A DNA stretch of 64,000 nucleotides, from the IMG/VR virus record IMGVR_UViG_3300050034_000334. One strand, written 5' to 3'. Origin of the DNA: a virus. Taxonomy: Duplodnaviria > Caudoviricetes. The notes under the pieces are model-generated. The model was not told the origin of the DNA. It was given only the letters and a program-made list of their open reading frames with translations, and did not search any database. The translations under genes and the position numbers were made by a program. This document shows, piece by piece, positions 3,226 through 57,729 of this stretch. The number at the start of each line of letters is the position of its first letter. Position 1 is the first letter of the stretch.

Positions 3226-3444
3226 ATGAACAAAGCACTATTAAAATCGCTCAAACAGGCAGTTCGATACATTGAAGTCACGAATGCATACCGTGGAGCA
3301 ATGACTGCTGCTGAAGTAGAAGCAGCGATCAAGCGTAACATCAATGACTCTCGCGTGGAAATCGGAGCCAACAGTTGCACCACGCTGGACTCATTTGATA
3401 TTCATGCTGCCAAGGCGGCTATTAAACTGGCCGAAGAGGTATAA
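3226..3444 (+). CDS. Hypothetical protein
   Basis: Promoter motif and GGAGG RBS upstream. Confidence 0.7.
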   Translation: MNKALLKSLKQAVRYIEVTNAYRGAMTAAEVEAAIKRNINDSRVEIGANSCTTLDSFDIHAAKAAIKLAEEV

Positions 3445-3495
3445 TCAAGAAAAACGGTCGCCCGAAGACGACCGCTTGACTTGTAAAGGATCTCG

Positions 3496-3753
3496 TTACA
3501 CGGCGGACAAGGTCATTCTATTTCTAGACTCGATCTTTGTGGGCTTGGGATCTGGGTTCAGCATGGTCATTCTAGAGGGACTTTTGGAACCTTGATTTTC
3601 AGGGGTGAATCTCAAGTATCCCTTCGAAATGCTCTGTTTCAGAAAAACTTCAAGCTCTTTTGCCAATTTGGGGTTTGATGTTTGAACTACCAGATCTCCA
3701 CTTCCAGTGAGAAAATCAGTAATCATGATTTCAGTAGTAACTTCCGCTTCCAT
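3496..3753 (-). CDS. Hypothetical protein
   Basis: 85-aa ORF filling the intergenic gap, AGGAG upstream. Confidence 0.6.
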   Translation of the reverse strand: MEAEVTTEIMITDFLTGSGDLVVQTSNPKLAKELEVFLKQSISKGYLRFTPENQGSKSPSRMTMLNPDPKPTKIESRNRMTLSAV

Positions 3754-3829: not shown

Positions 3830-3858
3830 TACCCGAAACTCACATGAACTCCGTAGAG
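3830..3858 (+). promoter_or_regulatory. Phage promoter motif TACCCGA-N16-GTAGAG
   Basis: Exact motif, 6 nt upstream of ATG 3865. Confidence 0.7.
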
Positions 3859-3864
3859 AGAAGT

Positions 3865-49699: not shown

Positions 49700-50112
49700 T
49701 CTTTGCCACGTGATCCCGGTTTATCCAGGACCTTCTGTTGCTAGGATCGTAACCGACCCCCGACAGCGATTAAGCTGCCATTGCCAGCGGAGCGAACGAA
49801 CGGACCGGGAAGGCCAGGACGTTGCTACGACGGGCGCTGATACCATTGTCGGTAGCAGTTATTGTTTCTGTGTCCGATTACGGAGGGCCACAGCGTACCG
49901 AGTTGTTATCTCTGGTCAGTTCCAATTGTCGAATCTGTTCGCCCCCATCATAAGCACTCTGGTTCCCAACTTCTGAACAGTCTCTTCTCCAGCGACCGTA
50001 TGAAATTCTAGGCGAAGTGGAGAGTGCTTATGGTGGAGGCGCGGGTCTATGCTAACCCGGTCCAAATGGCACATCACTTTGACTTCAGCTCCGAAGAGCA
50101 TACAACCATATA
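49700..50112 (-). ncRNA. ssrA: Circularly permuted (two-piece) tmRNA
   Basis: Acceptor piece ending cgcctccACCA (50031) lies upstream of the coding piece starting GGGGGCGAACAGATTCGAC (49946); G3-U70, A73; tag ATDNGISARRSNVLAFPVRSFAPLAMAA* (49856-49770) after AATAACT. Confidence 0.9.
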
Positions 50113-50116
50113 GATA

Positions 50117-50145
50117 GTCTACTGGCTATATTTGAATTCCAGGTA
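50117..50145 (-). promoter_or_regulatory. Promoter motif TACCTGG-N16-GTAGAC driving the tmRNA
   Basis: Variant of the recurring motif directly upstream of the acceptor piece. Confidence 0.6.
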
Positions 50146-50177: not shown

Positions 50178-50936
50178 TTGAACAAGCGTCTGGTATACAC
50201 GGTCTATAAAACCGTGAACAAAGCAAACGGTAAGTTCTACCTTGGAGTTCATAAGACTTCAAATCCGATGGATGAGTACTTAGGTTCTGGTACTTACATC
50301 AAGCGAGCCGTTGCAAAGTATGGTCAATCTGGTTTCACGAAAGAAATCCTCTTTGAGTACGAAACTCAAGAAGAAGGATGGGACAAGGAGGATGAACTCA
50401 TTGAGTTGAATCGGAATAATCCTCTTTGTACAAACATACGGAAAGGAGGTTCTGGAGGATTTGATTATATCAACAAAAATGGATTACTGACTATGTCAGA
50501 CGAGACTAAATCTAGGTGTACTGCTAAGCTGTTAAACTGGAGGAAAGAACATCCTAATGAAATCAAAGAGAATGCTCGAATAGCTAATCTAACTAGAAGC
50601 AAGCAGTGGAAGGGAGGTAAGCATACAACTGAAGTTTGTCATAGAATCTCAGAAGTGAGTAGTGGACCACACAATAACATGCATGACAAGAAATGGGTAC
50701 ATCATCCTGAATTGGGATTTAAGGCCGTTCTTCTAGATGAAGTACAATCGTATCTAGATGCTGGATGGCTACTTGGAAGAATTAGATATCGCAAGACTAC
50801 TCATTCAACTTATGGTAAGATTTGGATAAATAATGGAGAAAGAAACAAATTGGTGTCTAATCTAGAAGAGTTTCCAGGATGGAAACGTGGAAGATTGATG
50901 ACTATGATACAACGCAGTTTTGCTTCCATCTCTTGA
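50178..50936 (+). CDS. GIY-YIG homing endonuclease
   Basis: YTVYKTVNKANGKFYLGVHKT...YLGSG; paralog of 25607..26524. Confidence 0.88.
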   Translation: MNKRLVYTVYKTVNKANGKFYLGVHKTSNPMDEYLGSGTYIKRAVAKYGQSGFTKEILFEYETQEEGWDKEDELIELNRNNPLCTNIRKGGSGGFDYINKNGLLTMSDETKSRCTAKLLNWRKEHPNEIKENARIANLTRSKQWKGGKHTTEVCHRISEVSSGPHNNMHDKKWVHHPELGFKAVLLDEVQSYLDAGWLLGRIRYRKTTHSTYGKIWINNGERNKLVSNLEEFPGWKRGRLMTMIQRSFASIS

Positions 50937-51213
50937 AGATTGTGTCCACGCGAAACCCGAAGGTCAGAACTTGTGTCCACCACCAGCGATGAACCACAAC
51001 GGCGCATACTGTGTACGCCACGCATGGAACGCCCTCACGCAAGGGCCGTGCTGCACCTGCACGCCGGAAGGCAGCACGATCACGCTAGACGACGGCGAGT
51101 ACCTTGCGCTGACCAGGATCACCGATAGCGGCTGTCCGATACACGGGATGAGCAGCGCACACGTACCAGACCCGCACGAGGGCGCAAGCACGAAGGGAGG
51201 GCCGAAGCTGTGA
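50920..51213 (+). CDS. Cys-rich hypothetical protein, possibly 5'-truncated
   Basis: Starts the GC-richer patch; no clear RBS. Confidence 0.45.
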   Translation: MLPSLEDCVHAKPEGQNLCPPPAMNHNGAYCVRHAWNALTQGPCCTCTPEGSTITLDDGEYLALTRITDSGCPIHGMSSAHVPDPHEGASTKGGPKL

Positions 51214-51428
51214 TGGGTAGGCTGATTGGTAGTGATTTTACTCAGGTAGTCCAAACGCGCAAAACACGCTGCTCTGAGTGCGGCTTCAATATCCCTGTCG
51301 GGGATACCGCTCTGGAGTCTATCAAGGACGGCAAATGTGTCAAGCGCGTATGTGGGGAGAATTGCCGGATGGACTTCGATGATCGTTTCTGGCGTGGAGT
51401 TGCGGCCAGAGACAAGAGGCTACGCTGA
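51210..51428 (+). CDS. Small zinc-finger-like hypothetical protein
   Basis: CSECG...CG.NC; overlap-coupled. Confidence 0.65.
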   Translation: MMGRLIGSDFTQVVQTRKTRCSECGFNIPVGDTALESIKDGKCVKRVCGENCRMDFDDRFWRGVAARDKRLR

Positions 51429-51691
51429 TGACCACGCCCCTGCTCATCATCCTGATCGGCGCCGTGCCGGTAGCCATTCTGAGCGCATGGCTGGACCACG
51501 CATGGCGCAAGCGGCACCCGAAGCAGATCAGCACGGCGGAGTGGCTGCGTAGGATGCGTGCTCTTGAACCTGGAGTGCCCCCTGTGCGTCGCTACGAGGG
51601 CGCGGTAGGGGTAAGCACACCAGAACGCCCTGTGAGGGATAAGAAACTGGCGCTGGTGGTCAAACCGGCGAGAAAGAACGGGACACAATGA
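51428..51691 (+). CDS. Hypothetical protein with N-terminal TM
   Basis: TGATG overlap; hydrophobic N-terminus. Confidence 0.65.
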   Translation: MTTPLLIILIGAVPVAILSAWLDHAWRKRHPKQISTAEWLRRMRALEPGVPPVRRYEGAVGVSTPERPVRDKKLALVVKPARKNGTQ

Positions 51692-51906
51692 AGACTCCAT
51701 CAGGGATTGAAATTGAGATAGGTCAGGTTTGGCGCGGTCCTGATTATGGCGTTCAAAATCGCGTGGGACACTTTGAGGATGGTATTGTCTGGCTGTACCG
51801 GAAACATTGCAACGGGCCAGATCGCATCCCTGTGAGTCGATTCAACGGTAAGCGTGGCGGATATGCGCTGTCGGCCGGCAACGATGCGACAGAGGAGAGC
51901 AAGTGA
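51688..51906 (+). CDS. Hypothetical protein
   Basis: ATGA overlap. Confidence 0.65.
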   Translation: MKTPSGIEIEIGQVWRGPDYGVQNRVGHFEDGIVWLYRKHCNGPDRIPVSRFNGKRGGYALSAGNDATEESK

Positions 51907-51932
51907 TCGCCGCTGGTCTGGCTGCTTACTTC

Positions 51933-52424
51933 CTATCTGTGATCGCCGCTTCGCACGGCCTGTAAGGGCACGAAAGCCGGGGCGTCATGCTCCGGCTTTC
52001 GTGCCTGCTCTGCGCGATACTTCTCGAACCAGAAAACTACCGGCGTTGTATCGATACTTAATTTGCCAAAACGCATCAAGTGGTGTACGTGCGTGTAGGT
52101 TGATATTGTTGGGATGCTGTTCGCAAAATAGGTGAGTATAGAGCGGAAGCCTTCGACATTTGTATCTGCCTTTAGTATGTTGCATCTGACACAAGCAGGG
52201 TAAAGATTGTCTTTATTATCGTTTTCGGGTGAATAAAGTTTCCCGGTTTCCCGTGTCTTTGTGTACCCTGCTTTAGTAACTTCGCCGTGTACATATTCTG
52301 TTTGGCGGCGAACTGGTTCCACATGATCGGCGTGCCATTTGTCGATCAACTCCTGCCCACAATAAGCGCATCGACCGCCAAACATCATGCGGATTCTTTC
52401 GCGCTCTGGCTTGCTAAGGATCAT
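51933..52424 (-). CDS. HNH endonuclease
   Basis: FGGRCAYCG...WHADHVEP...NLYPACVRCNILK; ATGA overlap with the lysozyme. Confidence 0.88.
   Translation of the reverse strand: MILSKPERERIRMMFGGRCAYCGQELIDKWHADHVEPVRRQTEYVHGEVTKAGYTKTRETGKLYSPENDNKDNLYPACVRCNILKADTNVEGFRSILTYFANSIPTISTYTHVHHLMRFGKLSIDTTPVVFWFEKYRAEQARKPEHDAPAFVPLQAVRSGDHR
51967..52005. repeat. 14-bp perfect inverted repeat at a convergent junction (possible bidirectional terminator)
   Basis: ggcacgaaagccgg ... ccggctttcgtgcc. Confidence 0.6.
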
Positions 52425-52975
52425 TTCAACGCTCTCGCCGTCCATGCGTCTTTGTAAATGGCCAGCGCGGGATTCTTGGCAATAAGCGCATCGTAGTACG
52501 CGACACGAGATTGCTGGAAGCTGCCAACAAGTGCAGGGCCGCAAGCGTTTACCTGCTCGACGGTATTTGGACCCCACTTGCCGTCACATATCAATCTCGG
52601 CAATCCAGGATCACCGCACCAATTCACGGCTTGCTGCAAGCACCTCACAGACGCCTCACTGCCGGCATTCACGGCGAAGTCAAAGACGCGCTTTGCAACT
52701 TCGTCGCTGGTCAGTTGCGCGTACCAGGACGAGCCGTTCAAGATGCACCAGAAATGGGCTAAGTAGAACGTCTTCACGAGCGGTCCACGATCAGCTTGCG
52801 GCATGTTGGCAATCGCCGTGTACTGGAGCGGGAAGGCTCCTGAGTTGATTCCTGAGATGGCGAAGCAGTGGTCAAGCGTGCAACCTTCGGGGCACCTGTC
52901 CGTCACGGTCGCGTGCATGTCGGCGGCGTCTTCATTGCTGAGGAGCCATGAATATGCGGTTTTAAACGATGCCAT
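52421..52975 (-). CDS. Second GH108-family lysozyme
   Basis: NED...FAISGINS; FYLAHFW; VAKRVFDFAVNAG; CDGKWGPNT. Confidence 0.82.
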   Translation of the reverse strand: MASFKTAYSWLLSNEDAADMHATVTDRCPEGCTLDHCFAISGINSGAFPLQYTAIANMPQADRGPLVKTFYLAHFWCILNGSSWYAQLTSDEVAKRVFDFAVNAGSEASVRCLQQAVNWCGDPGLPRLICDGKWGPNTVEQVNACGPALVGSFQQSRVAYYDALIAKNPALAIYKDAWTARALK

Positions 52976-53002
52976 TCTCTCTCCTTAAGGCCGTACAGCG
53001 CC

Positions 53003-53506
53003 TTACTCGCAAAGCCCATACTTTGATTCGCAAGAAGGGCGTTCTGTGTTACCACGAAAAATATTGAATTGCCTTCCGCCTCGATCTGTCTTTGCCCACT
53101 CGATTACTTCATCAATGAAGTTGTACCCTGTTGACTTGATCGGGTCTATCGGGGGAAAGAACGTCACACCGCTTTCAACTTCATAGCGGCGAACTTTTTC
53201 TATCATCTCAGGATAGCGTTCAATCCAGAGGAGAATGTCTTCCTTCCCGCTATTCACACACGGAGCGCAACCGACACGGCCAAATCCAAGTTTGTAAAGA
53301 TGATTGTATTCCTGCCCATGACCCTCAATGAAATCGAAGCACATCTTTTTAGTCCAGTCAGCTAAAGGCGCATGACACATACAATCGAAGTAGGAATCAA
53401 ACCAAGAGAACGGCGTATCTTTCCGGCGCTCCGACTCATCCCTTCGCACTCCAGTGTACCTCTCATAATCCAATCCTGCGTATTCTCCCATCGGGCCGAA
53501 ATGCAA
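53003..53506 (-). pseudogene. C-terminal half of a PAPS-reductase-family protein
   Basis: YTGVRRDES, PLADWT, LYKLGFGRVGCAPCV present; N-terminal SGGKDS PP-loop absent. Confidence 0.7.
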
Positions 53507-53715
53507 CTCAGGCTCCGCGTGGAACCTAGAAAAATCAGTATGTGATCGCGACCTTCATCTTGCGGAAGCGGTCGACTGCCTGCTTTGAGTGGTCAACTGC
53601 TTGCGCGGTCTGCTTCTTGGTTTGTTCCCAGAAAGAAACCATCGCCTTCCAGCAGGATTCACCGTTCAAAACCACTTTGCCGTTGACTTCAACATTCATT
53701 TTCATCACCATTCAA

Positions 53716-54140
53716 GTGGGAATCAGGCTGCGGGCCATCTGGGCGTCGTCCCACCCGATCCGCTCCCAGACAGTTCTGTCTTGCGACAGGCCGCAGCCCT
53801 CACCCTCGTTAGGAGATAGACATCTCCTGAAATTTGGGTGGAGTCAGTCGCCCTTCTCCAACTCTCAAGATTCTGGCATCCGTCAATGTCCATGAGAGAC
53901 CACTCCACTTCGTGGTTTTAAGTATTTCCTGTGGGTGATAGGCGTGGTGCAACGCCTTGTTTTGCTTCTAGGGTCGGGGAGGGATTGCTCCCTCCCGGAT
54001 CACCCTCTCCTGCTGCTGCATACAAATACCTCCGCAGCGAGTTCTCGCTCCACTGATTAGCTGCTCGTTAGGCAGCTAGAAATCGTCACCAAAGAAATAG
54101 CCATCGCGCATGGGAAGTCTCCTGTACAGATCTCACCTTG
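53716..54140 (-). ncRNA. Candidate large structured ncRNA
   Basis: More than ten stems found by eye, two GCAA tetraloops on the minus strand, no convincing long ORF, promoter motif directly upstream. Confidence 0.5.
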
Positions 54141-54149
54141 ACGAGTGAA

Positions 54150-54178
54150 TGATACTACTCTACCGAAGAAAACGGGAA
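54150..54178 (-). promoter_or_regulatory. Promoter motif TTCCCGT-N16-GTATCA
   Basis: 16-nt spacer match. Confidence 0.6.
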
Positions 54179-54183
54179 ATCAG

Positions 54184-54420
54184 TTATTTTGCCCCAAGAG
54201 TGGGCTGGGTGCCGGTCACAAATTCTACATGCCTGATTTCCTTGGCCGTCTGTTCCGGAGTGGCTTCGACGGTTTCCAGGTGCCTATCCATGTTGGGCTC
54301 TACCATCCGTTCACCCAGTGAAGGACTTTCGGCGCTGATGAAGGCGACTGGACTCAGCTTGATCATGAGTTCTCCCTTGAATCGGAAGAGACTCTTGATT
54401 GGGATTTCTGCGAATGTCAT
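54184..54420 (-). CDS. Hypothetical protein
   Basis: GAGG RBS. Confidence 0.7.
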   Translation of the reverse strand: MTFAEIPIKSLFRFKGELMIKLSPVAFISAESPSLGERMVEPNMDRHLETVEATPEQTAKEIRHVEFVTGTQPTLGAK

Positions 54421-54429
54421 GTTATGCCT

Positions 54430-54975
54430 CTAGACTGGATACGCTACTTCAGCGAGTTTCCTTCTCTTGCCGGCGGAAATAGCCGCGCACTCTTCCGGAG
54501 AGCGTTTCTTGCCCAGTCTTCCTCTAGCAAAGGACTGAAGAGTTGCCAACGCAAGCGGGTGTGGTACTCTTCCTTTCTTCAACGCAGATTGACTATCACA
54601 GAATTCCTTAGTCCTTTTCTTTCCTATATTTGCTCTGCGGATTCTTTCAACCACTTCTCTAGGCATCTTCCAACCAGACTTACCTTCTCCACCAAGGGTC
54701 TCGTTGTAGCCACTACCCAAAGAGGCAAGCGTACCTTGTGATTTGATGAACTGCTTCTCGAGATCATTCAACAAACTGACTTCGCAGCAAGCAAGTTCCT
54801 GAATGGAAAAGTTGGAAGCACCATACTTTCGGATGGCCCGATACAGAGCAAAGTCAAGTCCGCTTTTTGCGTTGGCGACATGGTCCTTCCATCTCCCAGC
54901 CACCGATTTCGAGGTTTGTCCAACATACTTCTTCTGATTCACCAAGTTGACAATAAGATAGATGAATCCATTCAT
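54430..54975 (-). CDS. GIY-YIG homing endonuclease
   Basis: GFIYLIVNLVNQKKYVGQT...GYNETLGGEG. Confidence 0.9.
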   Translation of the reverse strand: MNGFIYLIVNLVNQKKYVGQTSKSVAGRWKDHVANAKSGLDFALYRAIRKYGASNFSIQELACCEVSLLNDLEKQFIKSQGTLASLGSGYNETLGGEGKSGWKMPREVVERIRRANIGKKRTKEFCDSQSALKKGRVPHPLALATLQSFARGRLGKKRSPEECAAISAGKRRKLAEVAYPV

Positions 54976-55139
54976 ACCTGATAGGTTCCTTCGAAACAGT
55001 CTTTGACATCCTGAAGTCCACAAGTACACTTTGGAGGAGGCTTCGTTCCGCCTTCTGCCACCTTCTTGTTCCACTCGCTCACTTTGCACTCAGGTGTGTG
55101 CTCAGCTTGCTCGAGGTACTCTTGTGCCTTGCTTAGCAT
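54972..55139 (-). CDS. Small hypothetical protein (H..C...C.C)
   Basis: Overlap-coupled; start uncertain. Confidence 0.55.
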   Translation of the reverse strand: MLSKAQEYLEQAEHTPECKVSEWNKKVAEGGTKPPPKCTCGLQDVKDCFEGTYQV

Positions 55140-56580: not shown

Positions 56581-57304
56581 CAGTAATCGAAAACTATCTG
56601 AGGAGACTAAAGAGAAAATTAGAAGAACTCTTCAATCCAAGTATCCTGTCAGAAAATGCCCTATATGTGAAAAATTGTTCCGTCGTAAACAAGAGTACTG
56701 CAGCAGGTCTTGTGACATGAAATCTAGAATGAGAGATCCTGTCCAGAGGAAAGCAGTGTCTGATTTTATGAAATCTGCTCCTCATAAGGGCTGGAAATCG
56801 AGATCGATGTCCTCCTATGCAGAGCTGTTTTGGATTGACATTCTCGCTAGAGAACAAGTCAGCTTTATCCGTGAAAAAGTCATGTCAAAGAAGAGCTTAG
56901 GAATTGAATCCTCCGGAAGCTATTTCCTCGACTTTTTCTTTCCTCAATTGAACCTAGATTTAGAAATAGATGGTAGCCAACATCTCAATCCTGTGGCAAA
57001 AACCAAAGATGACGAACGTGATTTAATCCTAGAAAGAAATGGGATTCATGTTGTGAGAATGCCTTGGAAGGGATTGACCAGACATCTAAAATTCACATTT
57101 TCACAAGTGGAAGAAGTTCTTATAATGGTCGGGGTGAGGCATTTCGAAAGCCCAACCTCATGTTCCCAAAACATGTGCTCTACCCTTGAGCTACACCCCG
57201 ACATGTTAAACCTTTTCTGCGTGCCGGATTTGACCGGCGTTTCCGTCCTCAATGGACGGCGTGCTGTCCGCTTACGGAATCCTGCCCAGGCGATGCGTCT
57301 ATAG
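56486..57304 (+). CDS. Vsr/DUF559-like PD-(D/E)XK endonuclease with zinc fingers; frame runs on antisense through tRNA-Pro
   Basis: CSRSC repeats; YFLDFF...LEIDGSQH...DDERD...GIHVVR. Confidence 0.75.
   Translation: MLHCMECSYCHTNPCRPGFDTCSRSCASSRANSNRKLSEETKEKIRRTLQSKYPVRKCPICEKLFRRKQEYCSRSCDMKSRMRDPVQRKAVSDFMKSAPHKGWKSRSMSSYAELFWIDILAREQVSFIREKVMSKKSLGIESSGSYFLDFFFPQLNLDLEIDGSQHLNPVAKTKDDERDLILERNGIHVVRMPWKGLTRHLKFTFSQVEEVLIMVGVRHFESPTSCSQNMCSTLELHPDMLNLFCVPDLTGVSVLNGRRAVRLRNPAQAMRL
57126..57200 (-). tRNA. tRNA-Pro(TGG)
   Basis: Cloverleaf, loop TTTGGGA, CCA. Confidence 0.88.
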
Positions 57305-57388
57305 CCACAAAGTCCAGACATTCTACCTGCTGCCCTTTGTTCTCACCCGTCGGCAAGATCTCAGGCTCTATTGCACTATCGCAAACTT

Positions 57389-57465
57389 TGGTCGGGATAA
57401 CTGGATTCGAACCAGCGACCTCACCCACCCCAAGGGTGCGCTCTACCAGGCTGAGCCATATCCCG
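57389..57465 (-). tRNA. tRNA-Pro(GGG)
   Basis: Cloverleaf, loop TTGGGGT, CCA. Confidence 0.93.
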
Positions 57466-57562
57466 ACAAACTGTGCCGCGTCCGATGTTGTCTCTTGTCA
57501 ACTTGAGGCTGGTTGGCTCTTCAAGTCACATCCTAGTGCGGCTTACTACGCTCTTCAAACTT

Positions 57563-57637
57563 TGGTGGACTCGAACGGGATTGAACCGCCGACGCCAACC
57601 TCTTCAGGGTTGCGCTCTACCACTGAGCTACGAGTCC
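57563..57637 (-). tRNA. tRNA-Phe(GAA)
   Basis: Cloverleaf, loop CTGAAGA, CCA. Confidence 0.93.
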
Positions 57638-57652
57638 ACATACAGCAAAAAT

Positions 57653-57729
57653 TGGTCGGCGTGGTCAGATTTGAACTGACGGCCCCTTGTTCCCGAAACA
57701 AGTGCGCTACCAGGCTGCGCTACACACCG
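57653..57729 (-). tRNA. tRNA-Pro(CGG)
   Basis: Cloverleaf, loop TTCGGGA, CCA. Confidence 0.93.

What the first reader, a model, noticed from the sequence alone, without database searches (positions are those of the whole stretch)
53716..54178. Candidate ~400-nt ornate non-coding RNA with its own promoter
Seen: nested and long-range pairings ggctgcgg/ccgcagcc (53726/53791), ctggg/cccag, ctgtc-GCAA-gacag, ggagat/atctcc, gtggagt/actccac (53838/53902), aggtattt/aaatactt (54024/53920), gggtgat/atcaccc, gggaggga-GCAA-tccctccc, aggcgt/acgcct and tagctgc/gcagcta. A possible pseudoknot is gtggga/tcccac. No RNase P, group II D5 or riboswitch signature was recognised. Known: phages carry large structured RNAs of unknown function (GOLLD, ROOL) near tRNAs. 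Inference: a new or divergent member of such a class.
Basis: partly seen in the sequence, partly recalled or inferred. Interest (0 to 1): 0.7.

Follow-up and report, generated by a model that had tools for sequence, protein, structure and literature searches.

The report
Structured leader of phage tmRNA unit
The hairpin-rich 470-base gap is real and has its own phage promoter, but it is most likely the folded front end of a short transcript that carries a tiny gene and the phage's ribosome-rescue RNA, not a new giant ornate RNA like GOLLD or ROOL.

Summary
The listed complementary segments all exist, on the minus strand, where both tetraloops read GCAA. The gap has no ORF with a known relative. 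It starts with an exact copy of this peat jumbo phage's bipartite promoter motif, in the TTCCCG-N17-GTATCAT form, which otherwise occurs in the window only before the two tRNA-array leaders. An SD-led 11-codon mini-ORF follows.

Folding is only modestly better than chance overall (z -2.0). Two modules carry the signal: 54031-53920 and 53799-53716, each z about -3. Rfam gives nothing even at E<10. No homolog exists outside this one phage species. No helix shows a compensatory change.

Natural strains delete whole modules. One lineage keeps only the promoter, mini-ORF and first hairpins, fused to a foreign 68-aa gene. In endonuclease-free strains the next features downstream are a 54-aa gene, a two-piece tmRNA and a strong terminator, with no other promoter motif. 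Metatranscriptome contigs bridge leader, gene and the tmRNA's first piece.

Best reading (0.5): a structured 5' leader of a small tmRNA unit. Rivals are a stand-alone sRNA or no RNA-level function. GOLLD/ROOL kinship is not supported. Interest is low to moderate.

The parts
54149..54178 (-). Phage promoter motif TTCCCG-N17-GTATCAT. The transcription start is inferred near 54145.
   Evidence: TWMCCG-N17-GTAK has 13 exact sites in the window against 0.27 expected; 0 of 100 shuffles reach 13. The TTCCCG...GTATCAT form has 3 exact sites, all on the minus strand. The other two (27693-27664 and 57973-57944) precede the tRNA-array leaders.
54113..54148 (-). Hypervariable 5' untranslated start, holding the Shine-Dalgarno AGGAGA (54123-54118).
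   Evidence: Most differences between haplotypes fall here, including a 14-nt deletion in the L006 type. AGGAG is kept in 3 of 4 haplotypes. The segment has no fold signal, z +0.8.
54076..54111 (-). 11-codon mini-ORF MRDGYFFGDDF with its stop codon. The UAG lies in the 5' arm of the next hairpin.
   Evidence: Read directly from the sequence. The peptide is identical in all haplotypes, and the one change (54097, L006 type) is synonymous. Translation is inferred, not shown.
54036..54078 (-). Two small hairpins: UAGCUGC/GCAGCUA (54078-54058) and AGCGA-GAAC-UCGCU (54049-54036).
   Evidence: Pair probability is 0.96 for the first. Both are invariant in all five haplotype types, including the L006 type.
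53968..54033 (-). Second Shine-Dalgarno GGAGG (54033-54029), AUG (54021) and a 17-codon frame ending at UAG (53970-53968). It overlaps module C.
   Evidence: Translation, coordinates. In the L006 type this frame runs by accident into a foreign gene.
53920..54031 (-). Module C, a three-way-junction candidate. It holds the GGGAGGGA-GCAA-UCCCUCCC hairpin and the AGGCGU/ACGCCU hairpin. Closing pairs GGGUGAU/AUCACCC and AGGUAUUU/AAAUACUU are possible.
   Evidence: z is -3.2 and -4.1 in the scan. 90 nt (54001-53912) are deleted in the L006-L009 type. U>C at 54026 breaks the closing helix in L030 and L032. The loop varies: GCAA, GUAA or GUA.
53830..53911 (-). Module D, a weakly structured linker with small hairpins. 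The possible long-range pair is GUGGAGU/ACUCCAC.
   Evidence: z is -1.2. The first 60 nt are kept in the L006 type. The recombination joint lies at GAAGG, 53852.
53811..53828 (-). Hairpin AGGAGAU-GUCU-AUCUCCU.
   Evidence: Pair probability is 0.95. L010 replaces it with a longer, different hairpin.
53716..53799 (-). Module E, a Y-shaped domain. P1 is GGGCUGCGG/CCGCAGCCU, P2 is CUGUC-GCAA-GACAG and P3 is CUGUCUGGG/CCCAGAUGG. A possible pseudoknot GUGGGA/UCCCAC ends 17 nt before the real start codon.
   Evidence: z is -3.0. Pair probabilities are 0.83-0.96. The module is absent in the L006 type and in L010. It is invariant in the haplotypes that have it.
53535..53699 (-). 54-aa gene. The real start is MNVEVNGK..., not the 58-aa frame.
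   Evidence: Homolog P0003 starts at MNVEV. The gene is frameshifted by a 13-nt deletion in L030 and L032, absent in the L006 type and L010, and has no family.
53509..53528 (-). Weak terminator-like hairpin after the 54-aa gene. The conserved module ends at 53505.
   Evidence: Found. All rearrangement joints lie at 53505.
49723..50139 (-). Two-piece tmRNA. In endonuclease-free strains it follows the 54-aa gene after 55 nt and is followed by a strong terminator.
   Evidence: Rfam hit. In L013, ARAGORN places it at 3232-3617 and Rfam at 3263-3526. No promoter motif lies in between. Sequence.

Best explanation
The stretch is the long, partly folded 5' leader of a short phage transcription unit, not a free-standing ornate RNA. 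Transcription starts at a phage-type promoter (54178-54149, minus strand) directly behind the stop codon of the 78-aa gene. The RNA begins with a variable untranslated start and an SD-led 11-codon mini-ORF. Small invariant hairpins follow, then two independently stable modules (C and E), and the RNA runs into a 54-aa gene. In strains without the inserted homing-endonuclease and 2.5-kb cassettes it continues 55 nt later into the two-piece tmRNA gene and its strong terminator. The leader is therefore the part that must be cut away from the tmRNA precursor. Its hairpins most likely act in cis, by protecting the 5' end, guiding processing, or coupling downstream expression to translation of the mini-ORF, as proposed for the leaders of this phage's tRNA arrays, which use the same promoter form. 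Shown: the motif, the mini-ORF, the hairpins, the gene order, the natural deletions, and presence in RNA libraries. Inferred: the start site, co-transcription with the tmRNA, and any regulatory role.
For: (1) The promoter motif is strongly enriched: 13 sites against 0.27 expected. The TTCCCG-N17-GTATCAT form occurs exactly three times, at this site and before the two tRNA-array leaders.
(2) As at those two sites, a mini-ORF follows. Its SD is kept through a hypervariable stretch in 3 of 4 haplotypes.
(3) In L013, which carries no endonuclease gene between the leader and the tmRNA, the only motif sites are this one and one after the tmRNA. Between them lie the leader, the 54-aa gene, the tmRNA (ARAGORN 3232-3617) and a GC hairpin with a U tract.
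(4) RNA-library contigs of two studies (X10, 731 nt; X4) run from the leader through the 54-aa gene. They end 115 and 110 nt past 53505, which is L013 ~3322 and ~3317. The CCA of the tmRNA acceptor piece is at 3322-3324, and DNA contigs go on past it. The X10 contig ends upstream at about 54118, about 25 nt after the inferred start.
(5) The L006-L009 lineage, five contigs from four or more samples, keeps the promoter, mini-ORF, first hairpins and 60 nt of module D. It fuses them 33 nt before the start of a foreign 68-aa gene, so this part works as a portable promoter-leader.
(6) L030 and L032 have a frameshifted 54-aa gene but an intact leader and tmRNA.
(7) Single substitutions in helices mostly keep pairing on the minus strand only: A-U to G.U at 53936 and 53839, U.G to C-G at 53885, and C-G to U.G at 53896.
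Against: No intrinsic terminator or clear antiterminator pair follows the mini-ORF on the minus strand, so a classical attenuator is not seen. The mini-ORF codons (Asp, Phe, Gly, Tyr, Arg) have no evident link to a tmRNA. The competing pairing between the mini-ORF and the 3' strand of module C (-12.8 kcal/mol) is matched by 3.4% of random windows. In the window's own genome, 3.4 kb including an opposite-strand endonuclease gene separate the leader from the tmRNA. Contigs cannot prove a single transcript, strand or start. Modules C and E are lost in viable strains, so they may be dispensable or functionless. A distant phage with the same small gene beside a two-piece tmRNA (L029) has no such leader. 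In run X1, bubble unitigs at 53957-54047 have depths of 337-463, while the contigs they merge into average 45 and 126. That fits a short abundant species as well as it fits a leader.
Confidence: 0.5

Rival explanations
1. A stand-alone stable small RNA of roughly 200-430 nt is made from this promoter, for example about 54145 to about 53930. It ends by processing or non-canonical termination after module C and acts in trans on host or phage targets or binds a protein.
For: It has its own promoter of the form used for stable-RNA genes. Eighteen RNA libraries from many studies hold the stretch. In run X1 the two arms of a one-letter bubble (53957-54016, depths 337 and 96) and the next unitigs (370 and 463) are far deeper than the whole-length means of the contigs they merge into: 45 for 53986 to 53505 and beyond, and 126 for 54018-54572. 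Depth must therefore fall on both sides of about 54140-53930 (a weak, model-based inference). Module C has z -3.2 to -4.1. The phage carries several other small structured RNAs (earlier notes).
Against: No terminator follows module C on the minus strand. Contigs of X4 and X10 continue at one depth through the downstream gene. The 90-nt core of module C is deleted in a widespread lineage. There is no Rfam family, no homolog and no covariation. Contig depths are single averages and cannot show ends.
Confidence: 0.2
2. There is no RNA-level function. The gap is a recombination-prone spacer in a hypervariable, endonuclease-ridden region. Its perfect GC-rich palindromes are DNA-level features or young scars, and transcription through it is incidental.
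For: Nearly all helices are perfect Watson-Crick palindromes. The plus strand folds at least as well, z -3.5 against -2.0. Five different rearrangement joints lie in or at the edge of the module: 54443, 54001/53912, 53852, 53815 and 53505. Modules are lost without loss of the lineage. Divergence in the gap is no lower than in the flanking ORFs. A GNRA loop is lost in one haplotype, and a closing helix is broken in two.
Against: The promoter motif and the SD-led mini-ORF are placed as at the tRNA leaders. Two modules are in the top 1-3% of the window for fold z-score. Four of six substitutions in helices keep pairing on the minus strand only. That count is too small to be significant.
Confidence: 0.2
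3. Module E (53799-53716) is a ligand- or factor-sensing translational operator, riboswitch-like, for the 54-aa gene. A pseudoknot GUGGGA/UCCCAC next to the start region gates initiation.
For: It is a Y-shaped domain with a GCAA loop, z -3.0 and helix probabilities of 0.83-0.96. The 3' pseudoknot arm ends 17 nt before the real AUG at 53699.
Against: No riboswitch family matches at E<10. Homologs of the gene elsewhere (P0003, P0009) have no such upstream element. L030 and L032 keep the module while the gene is frameshifted. A 6-bp loop-tail match is common by chance. There is no variation to test.
Confidence: 0.07
4. The stretch is a degenerate group I (or other) intron or another mobile-element RNA tied to the neighbouring GIY-YIG homing endonuclease gene.
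For: A GIY-YIG gene lies 250 nt upstream. A truncated PAPS-reductase fragment lies downstream (profile positions 105-173 of 175). GNRA loops are typical of group I introns.
Against: No intron model matches at E<10. The endonuclease gene comes and goes independently of the stretch, and so does the PAPS-reductase cassette. The flanking 78-aa and 54-aa frames are separate genes with their own starts. No allele shows a precise excision.
Confidence: 0.03

Closest known systems
GOLLD and ROOL large ornate RNAs of phages and prophages (Rfam families; PMC12286853)
   Same: It is non-coding, phage-encoded and lies near tRNA-type genes. It has several hairpins with GNRA loops and a possible pseudoknot.
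   Different: The covariance models give no match even at E<10. At most about 430 nt lie behind the promoter, whereas many GOLLD members exceed 800 nt (PMC12286853). Only two of the five segments fold better than chance. There is no family beyond one phage species, no covariation, and whole modules are deleted in viable strains.
Leader regions of this phage's own tRNA arrays (earlier scan notes e1-5322924 and e1-5322927), modelled on leader-peptide attenuators such as trpL and thrL
   Same: It uses the same rare promoter form TTCCCG-N17-GTATCAT, followed by a short ORF and then structure, ahead of a stable-RNA gene.
   Different: It is three times longer. No terminator hairpin with a U tract follows the mini-ORF. 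The codons are not matched to the product. A protein gene sits between the leader and the RNA gene.
5' leaders of tmRNA (ssrA) precursors, including phage two-piece tmRNA genes
   Same: It lies upstream of a permuted tmRNA in one inferred transcription unit. It has to be removed to give the mature acceptor piece.
   Different: By my own knowledge, known ssrA leaders are short and carry no ORFs. Here about 430 nt of folded RNA plus a 54-aa gene precede the tmRNA. A distant phage with the same gene pair lacks the leader.
Group I introns with GIY-YIG homing endonucleases (T4 td / I-TevI type)
   Same: A GIY-YIG gene is adjacent, there are GNRA-capped hairpins, and the size is a few hundred nt.
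   Different: There is no model match, no split host gene, and the endonuclease is free-standing and independently variable.

Membership tests
GOLLD / ROOL (large ornate phage RNAs) | Match to the family covariance model (sequence plus structure) | tested here: not met
   There is no hit at gathering score in the window. No hit of any of 4227 families reaches E<=10 in 53400-54500, apart from two chance hits (a snoRNA and a miRNA) outside or at the edge.
GOLLD / ROOL (large ornate phage RNAs) | Large size (many GOLLD members exceed 800 nt; ROOL about 500-600 nt, from my own knowledge) with one integrated multi-pseudoknot fold | tested here: not met
   At most about 430-445 nt lie between the inferred start and the next gene. 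The fold signal is confined to two modules of about 110 and 85 nt. The GOLLD size is from PMC12286853.
GOLLD / ROOL (large ornate phage RNAs) | Structure conserved with covariation across many phages and prophages | tested here: not met
   There are no homologs outside one phage species: phages, viral contigs, metagenome contigs. Among 7 haplotypes no helix has a two-sided change. Modules are deleted in some strains.
GOLLD / ROOL (large ornate phage RNAs) | Location in phage genomes near tRNA islands | tested here: met
   tRNA genes lie at 57126-57729 and the tmRNA at 49723-50139.
Group I intron | Conserved catalytic core recognised by the Rfam model | tested here: not met
   No match at E<=10.
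Group I intron | Interrupts a gene whose two exons flank it, with intron-less alleles that are continuous | tested here: not met
   The flanking frames are separate small genes. The variants show internal deletions and replacements, never a precise excision.
Leader-peptide transcription attenuator (trpL type; this phage's tRNA-array leaders) | Promoter followed by a short translated ORF | tested here: met
   The promoter motif is at 54178-54149, the SD AGGAGA at 54123-54118 and the 11-codon ORF at 54111-54076. Translation itself is not shown.
Leader-peptide transcription attenuator (trpL type; this phage's tRNA-array leaders) | Terminator hairpin with a U tract after the ORF, and a mutually exclusive antiterminator | tested here: not met
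   There is no terminator-like site on the minus strand between 54076 and 53529. The one competing pairing found is no better than 3.4% of random windows.
Leader-peptide transcription attenuator (trpL type; this phage's tRNA-array leaders) | Leader codons matched to the regulated product | tested here: inconclusive
   The leader has Asp x3, Phe x3, Gly x2, Tyr and Arg. The downstream products are a 54-aa protein and a tmRNA, and no obvious match exists.
5' leader of a tmRNA precursor | Same transcription unit as the tmRNA, with no promoter in between and a terminator after the tmRNA | tested here: met
   In L013 the motif sites are only at 2537-2563 and 3837-3863, and the tmRNA is at 3232-3617, followed by a GC hairpin and U tract. 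RNA contigs bridge the leader to the tmRNA acceptor piece. This is weak support, because contigs do not prove one transcript, and the window's own genome has insertions in between.
Riboswitch or ribozyme classes in Rfam | Match to any curated model | tested here: not met
   No match at E<=10.

The most novel reading that the evidence does not exclude
The leader is a translation-sensing control region for a phage tmRNA. Ribosomes pausing on the 11-codon mini-ORF would remodel the folded leader and raise processing or read-through into the two-piece tmRNA. The phage would then make its ribosome-rescue RNA when translation falters. This would be the tmRNA counterpart of the codon-matched leaders before its tRNA arrays, and it shares their promoter form.
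Probability: 0.12. Interest if true: 0.65.

Novelty: new member of a known kind. Interest (0 to 1): 0.3.

Why it matters
If the leader reading holds, this jumbo phage drives its tmRNA from the same special promoter form as its tRNA arrays and again puts a mini-ORF first. That extends the picture of phage-controlled translation machinery from tRNAs to ribosome rescue. It also gives a natural deletion series (L006 type, L010, L030/L032) for testing what the folded modules do. As a candidate for a new class of large ornate RNA it does not hold up. It is confined to one phage species, it is modular, and parts of it are dispensable. It should not be added to lists of GOLLD/ROOL-like RNAs without end mapping and more distant relatives.

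Tried and rejected
**Searches that found no relative or no family**
- Rfam at gathering score and at E<=10 gave nothing relevant.
- Cultured phages gave no match by DNA or by the three neighbouring proteins.
- The first viral-contig pattern had a mistyped gap and found nothing. The corrected pattern found only the two near-identical records.
- The single metagenome scan gave four loci and no new lineage.
- Protein searches with the 58-aa, 78-aa and L006 100-aa frames gave only near-identical clusters, plus P0003 and P0006.
- A profile search of 1.8 billion representatives with the 54-aa gene gave five hits, of which only P0009 was useful.
- PHROGs and Pfam gave nothing for the small frames or the 415-aa neighbour.

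**Other dead ends**
- The window holds no repeat copies of the hairpins.
- The own-genome search failed because the assembly is not held, and the records behind L016 and L017 are not held either. Paralogous leaders elsewhere in the 340-kb genome could therefore not be searched.
- The L006 100-aa ORF is not a gene disrupted in the window. It is an accidental in-frame run of leader sequence into a foreign 68-aa gene with its own SD and GTG start.
- A translational hop across the 90-nt module was rejected, because the frames on the two sides do not agree between lineages.
- Leader-tmRNA complementarity is no better than shuffles, 14 of 40 as good.
- The pairing between the mini-ORF and the module C 3' strand is not significant.
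- I did not use the count of structure pairs, to avoid typing a 496-character structure string. Pair counts were made by script instead.

**RNA-run cover**
- Stretches without cover in runs X10 and X13 (upstream of 54113, and the gaps) are not used as evidence.
- Contig depths are single averages per contig.

Full report
**What is there.** The window is part of an uncultured jumbo phage from peat. It holds ten tRNA genes and a two-piece tmRNA, and almost all genes here lie on the minus strand. The finding covers the gap between a 78-aa frame (54420-54184) and a frame called as 58 aa (53711-53535), both on the minus strand. No frame in the gap has a family. Natural variants break or delete the longest frames.

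**Is the fold more than chance?** Only in part.
- The whole 472 nt has z -2.0 on the minus strand and -3.5 on the plus strand.
- Split into five segments, the first 180 nt have no signal (z +0.8 and +0.6).
- Module C (54030-53910) has z -3.2, the linker D -1.2, and module E (53830-53712) -3.0.
- In a scan of the window with 120-nt stretches, 1.5% reach z <= -3. The stretch over module C scores -4.1 and the one over E -2.8.
- The ensemble supports the local hairpins (probabilities 0.83-0.97) but not the three long-range pairings, which compete with local alternatives.

So there are two well-folded modules and some small hairpins. A single ornate 400-nt fold is not demonstrated.

**The promoter is real as a motif, and it sits on the minus strand.** I tested it: 13 exact sites in the window against 0.27 expected, and none of 100 shuffles reaches 13. 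Eleven sites are on the minus strand. A sub-form, TTCCCG-N17-GTATCAT, occurs exactly three times:
- at 27693-27664, before the leader of the Thr/Ile/Gln/Cys tRNA array;
- at 57973-57944, before the leader of the Pro/Phe array;
- at 54178-54149, six bases after the stop codon of the 78-aa frame.

The sigma-70-type scan finds nothing here. About 30 nt after the motif comes AGGAGA, then six bases, then the frame AUG CGC GAU GGC UAU UUC UUU GGU GAC GAU UUC UAG. The stop codon of that frame is the first triplet of the hairpin UAGCUGC/GCAGCUA. The stretch between motif and AUG is the most variable part of the whole module. AGGAG is nevertheless kept in three of four haplotypes, and the only change inside the mini-ORF is synonymous. 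With so few changes this is suggestive only.

**What it is attached to.** Homolog P0003 shows that the downstream gene starts at MNVEVNGK (53699), so it is 54 aa long. Comparison with 25 related contigs shows that 54443-53505 is a conserved block bounded by variable insertions.
- A GIY-YIG endonuclease gene (54979-54444) is replaced by another endonuclease gene at a different spot in L004, L011 and L013.
- A 2.5-kb cassette (50983-53504) with a truncated PAPS-reductase fragment is present only in window-type genomes.
- A further GIY-YIG-like frame (50178-50936, plus strand) lies before the tmRNA in window- and G001-type genomes.

In L013, L019 and L030, which lack both the cassette and that frame, the 54-aa gene is followed after 55 nt by the permuted tmRNA. 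ARAGORN places it at L013 3232-3617 and Rfam at 3263-3526. A GC hairpin with a U tract follows. The promoter motif occurs in L013 only at the start of the leader and again after the tmRNA. The simplest unit is therefore promoter, leader, 54-aa gene, tmRNA, terminator.

**RNA data.** Eighteen metatranscriptome runs from many studies hold the stretch. Only contigs were available, so strand, ends and levels cannot be read directly.
- Contigs of X10 (731 nt) and X4 bridge the leader and the 54-aa gene and go on for 115 and 110 nt past 53505.
- Their first 30 letters there match L013. In L013 these ends fall at about 3322 and 3317, next to the CCA (3322-3324) of the tmRNA acceptor piece, while DNA contigs continue.
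- The X10 contig ends upstream at about 54118.
- In X1, the two arms of a one-letter bubble at 53957-54016 have depths 337 and 96, and the adjoining unitigs 370 and 463. The contigs they merge into average only 45 and 126. Depth must therefore fall on both sides of roughly 54140-53930.

This last point fits an abundant promoter-proximal leader fragment or a separate small RNA. It is a model-based inference from one run.

**Natural variants as a deletion series**.
- *L006-L009* (four or more samples) keep the promoter, a shortened 5' start, the mini-ORF, both small hairpins and 60 nt of D. They lack 90 nt of module C (54001-53912, with a 2-nt microhomology), module E, the 54-aa gene and the tmRNA. 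At GAAGG (53852) they join a foreign segment 33 nt before the GTG of a 68-aa gene, which elsewhere sits in another context (L026-L028). The 100-aa ORF called there is an accidental read-in.
- *L010* replaces the AGGAGAU hairpin and lacks module E and the 54-aa gene.
- *L030 and L032* carry a 13-nt frameshift in the 54-aa gene, with the leader and tmRNA intact.
- *Point changes.* Four keep pairing on the minus strand only (53936, 53839, 53885, 53896). One breaks a terminal pair (53892). One breaks AGGUAUUU/AAAUACUU and its local alternative (54026). The GCAA loop of module C becomes GUAA or GUA, and the AGGCGU loop gains AU.
- No helix has a two-sided change.

The promoter-proximal 190 nt behave as a portable promoter-leader. 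Modules C and E are dispensable for lineage survival.

**Relatives.** None were found beyond this species. Searches covered cultured phages, IMG/VR, JGI metagenome contigs, 5.8 billion proteins and 1.8 billion representatives. One distant phage contig (L029) has a 41-aa homolog of the small gene among tRNAs, next to a two-piece tmRNA. It has neither the leader nor the promoter motif. The gene-tmRNA neighbourhood thus recurs, but the folded leader does not.

**Reading.**
- Most likely (0.5): the stretch is the structured 5' leader of a small stable-RNA unit. Its role is cis-acting or a processing by-product.
- A stand-alone small RNA (0.2) and a functionless, recombination-prone spacer (0.2) remain open.
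- A riboswitch-like operator in module E (0.07) and an intron remnant (0.03) are unlikely.
- A classical attenuator is not seen, because no terminator follows the mini-ORF and the only competing pairing I found is not significant.

**Comparison with GOLLD and ROOL.** The shared features are the phage setting near tRNA-type genes and GNRA-capped hairpins. The defining features are not met: no model match, not the size, no conserved covarying architecture (PMC12286853).

**Verdict.** The stretch is a new member of a known kind (a phage leader or non-coding RNA), of low to moderate interest. Its main value is the link between the RNA-gene promoter form, a mini-ORF and the tmRNA.

Noticed in passing
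window 54444-54979 (-), L013:1570-2124: GIY-YIG homing endonuclease genes occupy alternative sites between the 415-aa and 78-aa genes. The window and G001 types have one at 54979-54444, fused in frame to the start of a small 54/55-aa frame. L004, L011 and L013 lack it and carry a different 184-aa GIY-YIG gene about 150 nt further upstream. An RNA contig (X4) shows the endonuclease-free joint.
   Followed up: partly
window 50983-53504: A 2.5-kb GC-richer cassette holds a PAPS-reductase C-terminal fragment only (Pfam positions 105-173 of 175), a PG_binding_3 protein and an HNH-like frame. It is present in window-type genomes (L016, L017, L031) and absent in G001, L005, L013 and others. No N-terminal half of the reductase was found nearby.
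   Followed up: partly
window 49723-50139 versus L013:3232-3617: The tmRNA differs between strains. L013, L019 and L030 have a canonical T-arm (GGGUUCGACUCCC) and the tag AEPYALPMAA by ARAGORN. The window's copy reads GGGUUAGCAUAGACCC at that place. ARAGORN does not call it there, though Rfam does. The L006-L009 lineage and L010 have no tmRNA at all.
   Followed up: partly
window 50940-50995 (-), L013:3215-3262: A direct repeat GUGGACACAAGUU occurs twice around a small hairpin just before the tmRNA. In window-type and G001-type genomes the second copy is cut by the insertion that carries the plus-strand GIY-YIG-like frame 50178-50936.
   Followed up: no
window 53666-53678: A 13-nt deletion frameshifts the 54-aa gene in two haplotypes from different samples (L030, L032), so this small gene is dispensable.
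   Followed up: yes
L029:1845-2800: A distant phage contig carries a two-piece tmRNA, several tRNAs and a 41-aa homolog (P0009) of the 54-aa gene wedged between tRNA genes. The small gene may be functionally tied to tRNA/tmRNA clusters.
   Followed up: partly
window, 13 sites (e.g. 3181, 9330, 17837, 49515, 58561): The promoter motif has two forms. TA(C/A)CCG-N17-GTAG (10 sites) precedes protein genes. TTCCCG-N17-GTATCAT (3 sites) occurs only before tRNA and tmRNA leaders, which may mark a separate promoter class for stable-RNA units. At 54186-54160 a one-mismatch GTAG-type site overlaps the GTAT-type site by 8 nt.
   Followed up: partly
window 53940-53967 (+): On the plus strand the AGGCGU/ACGCCU hairpin is followed by UGUUUUGCUU, which looks like a terminator for antisense transcription. 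A 238-nt RNA contig from another locus or organism shares these 34 nt with three differences (X4).
   Followed up: no
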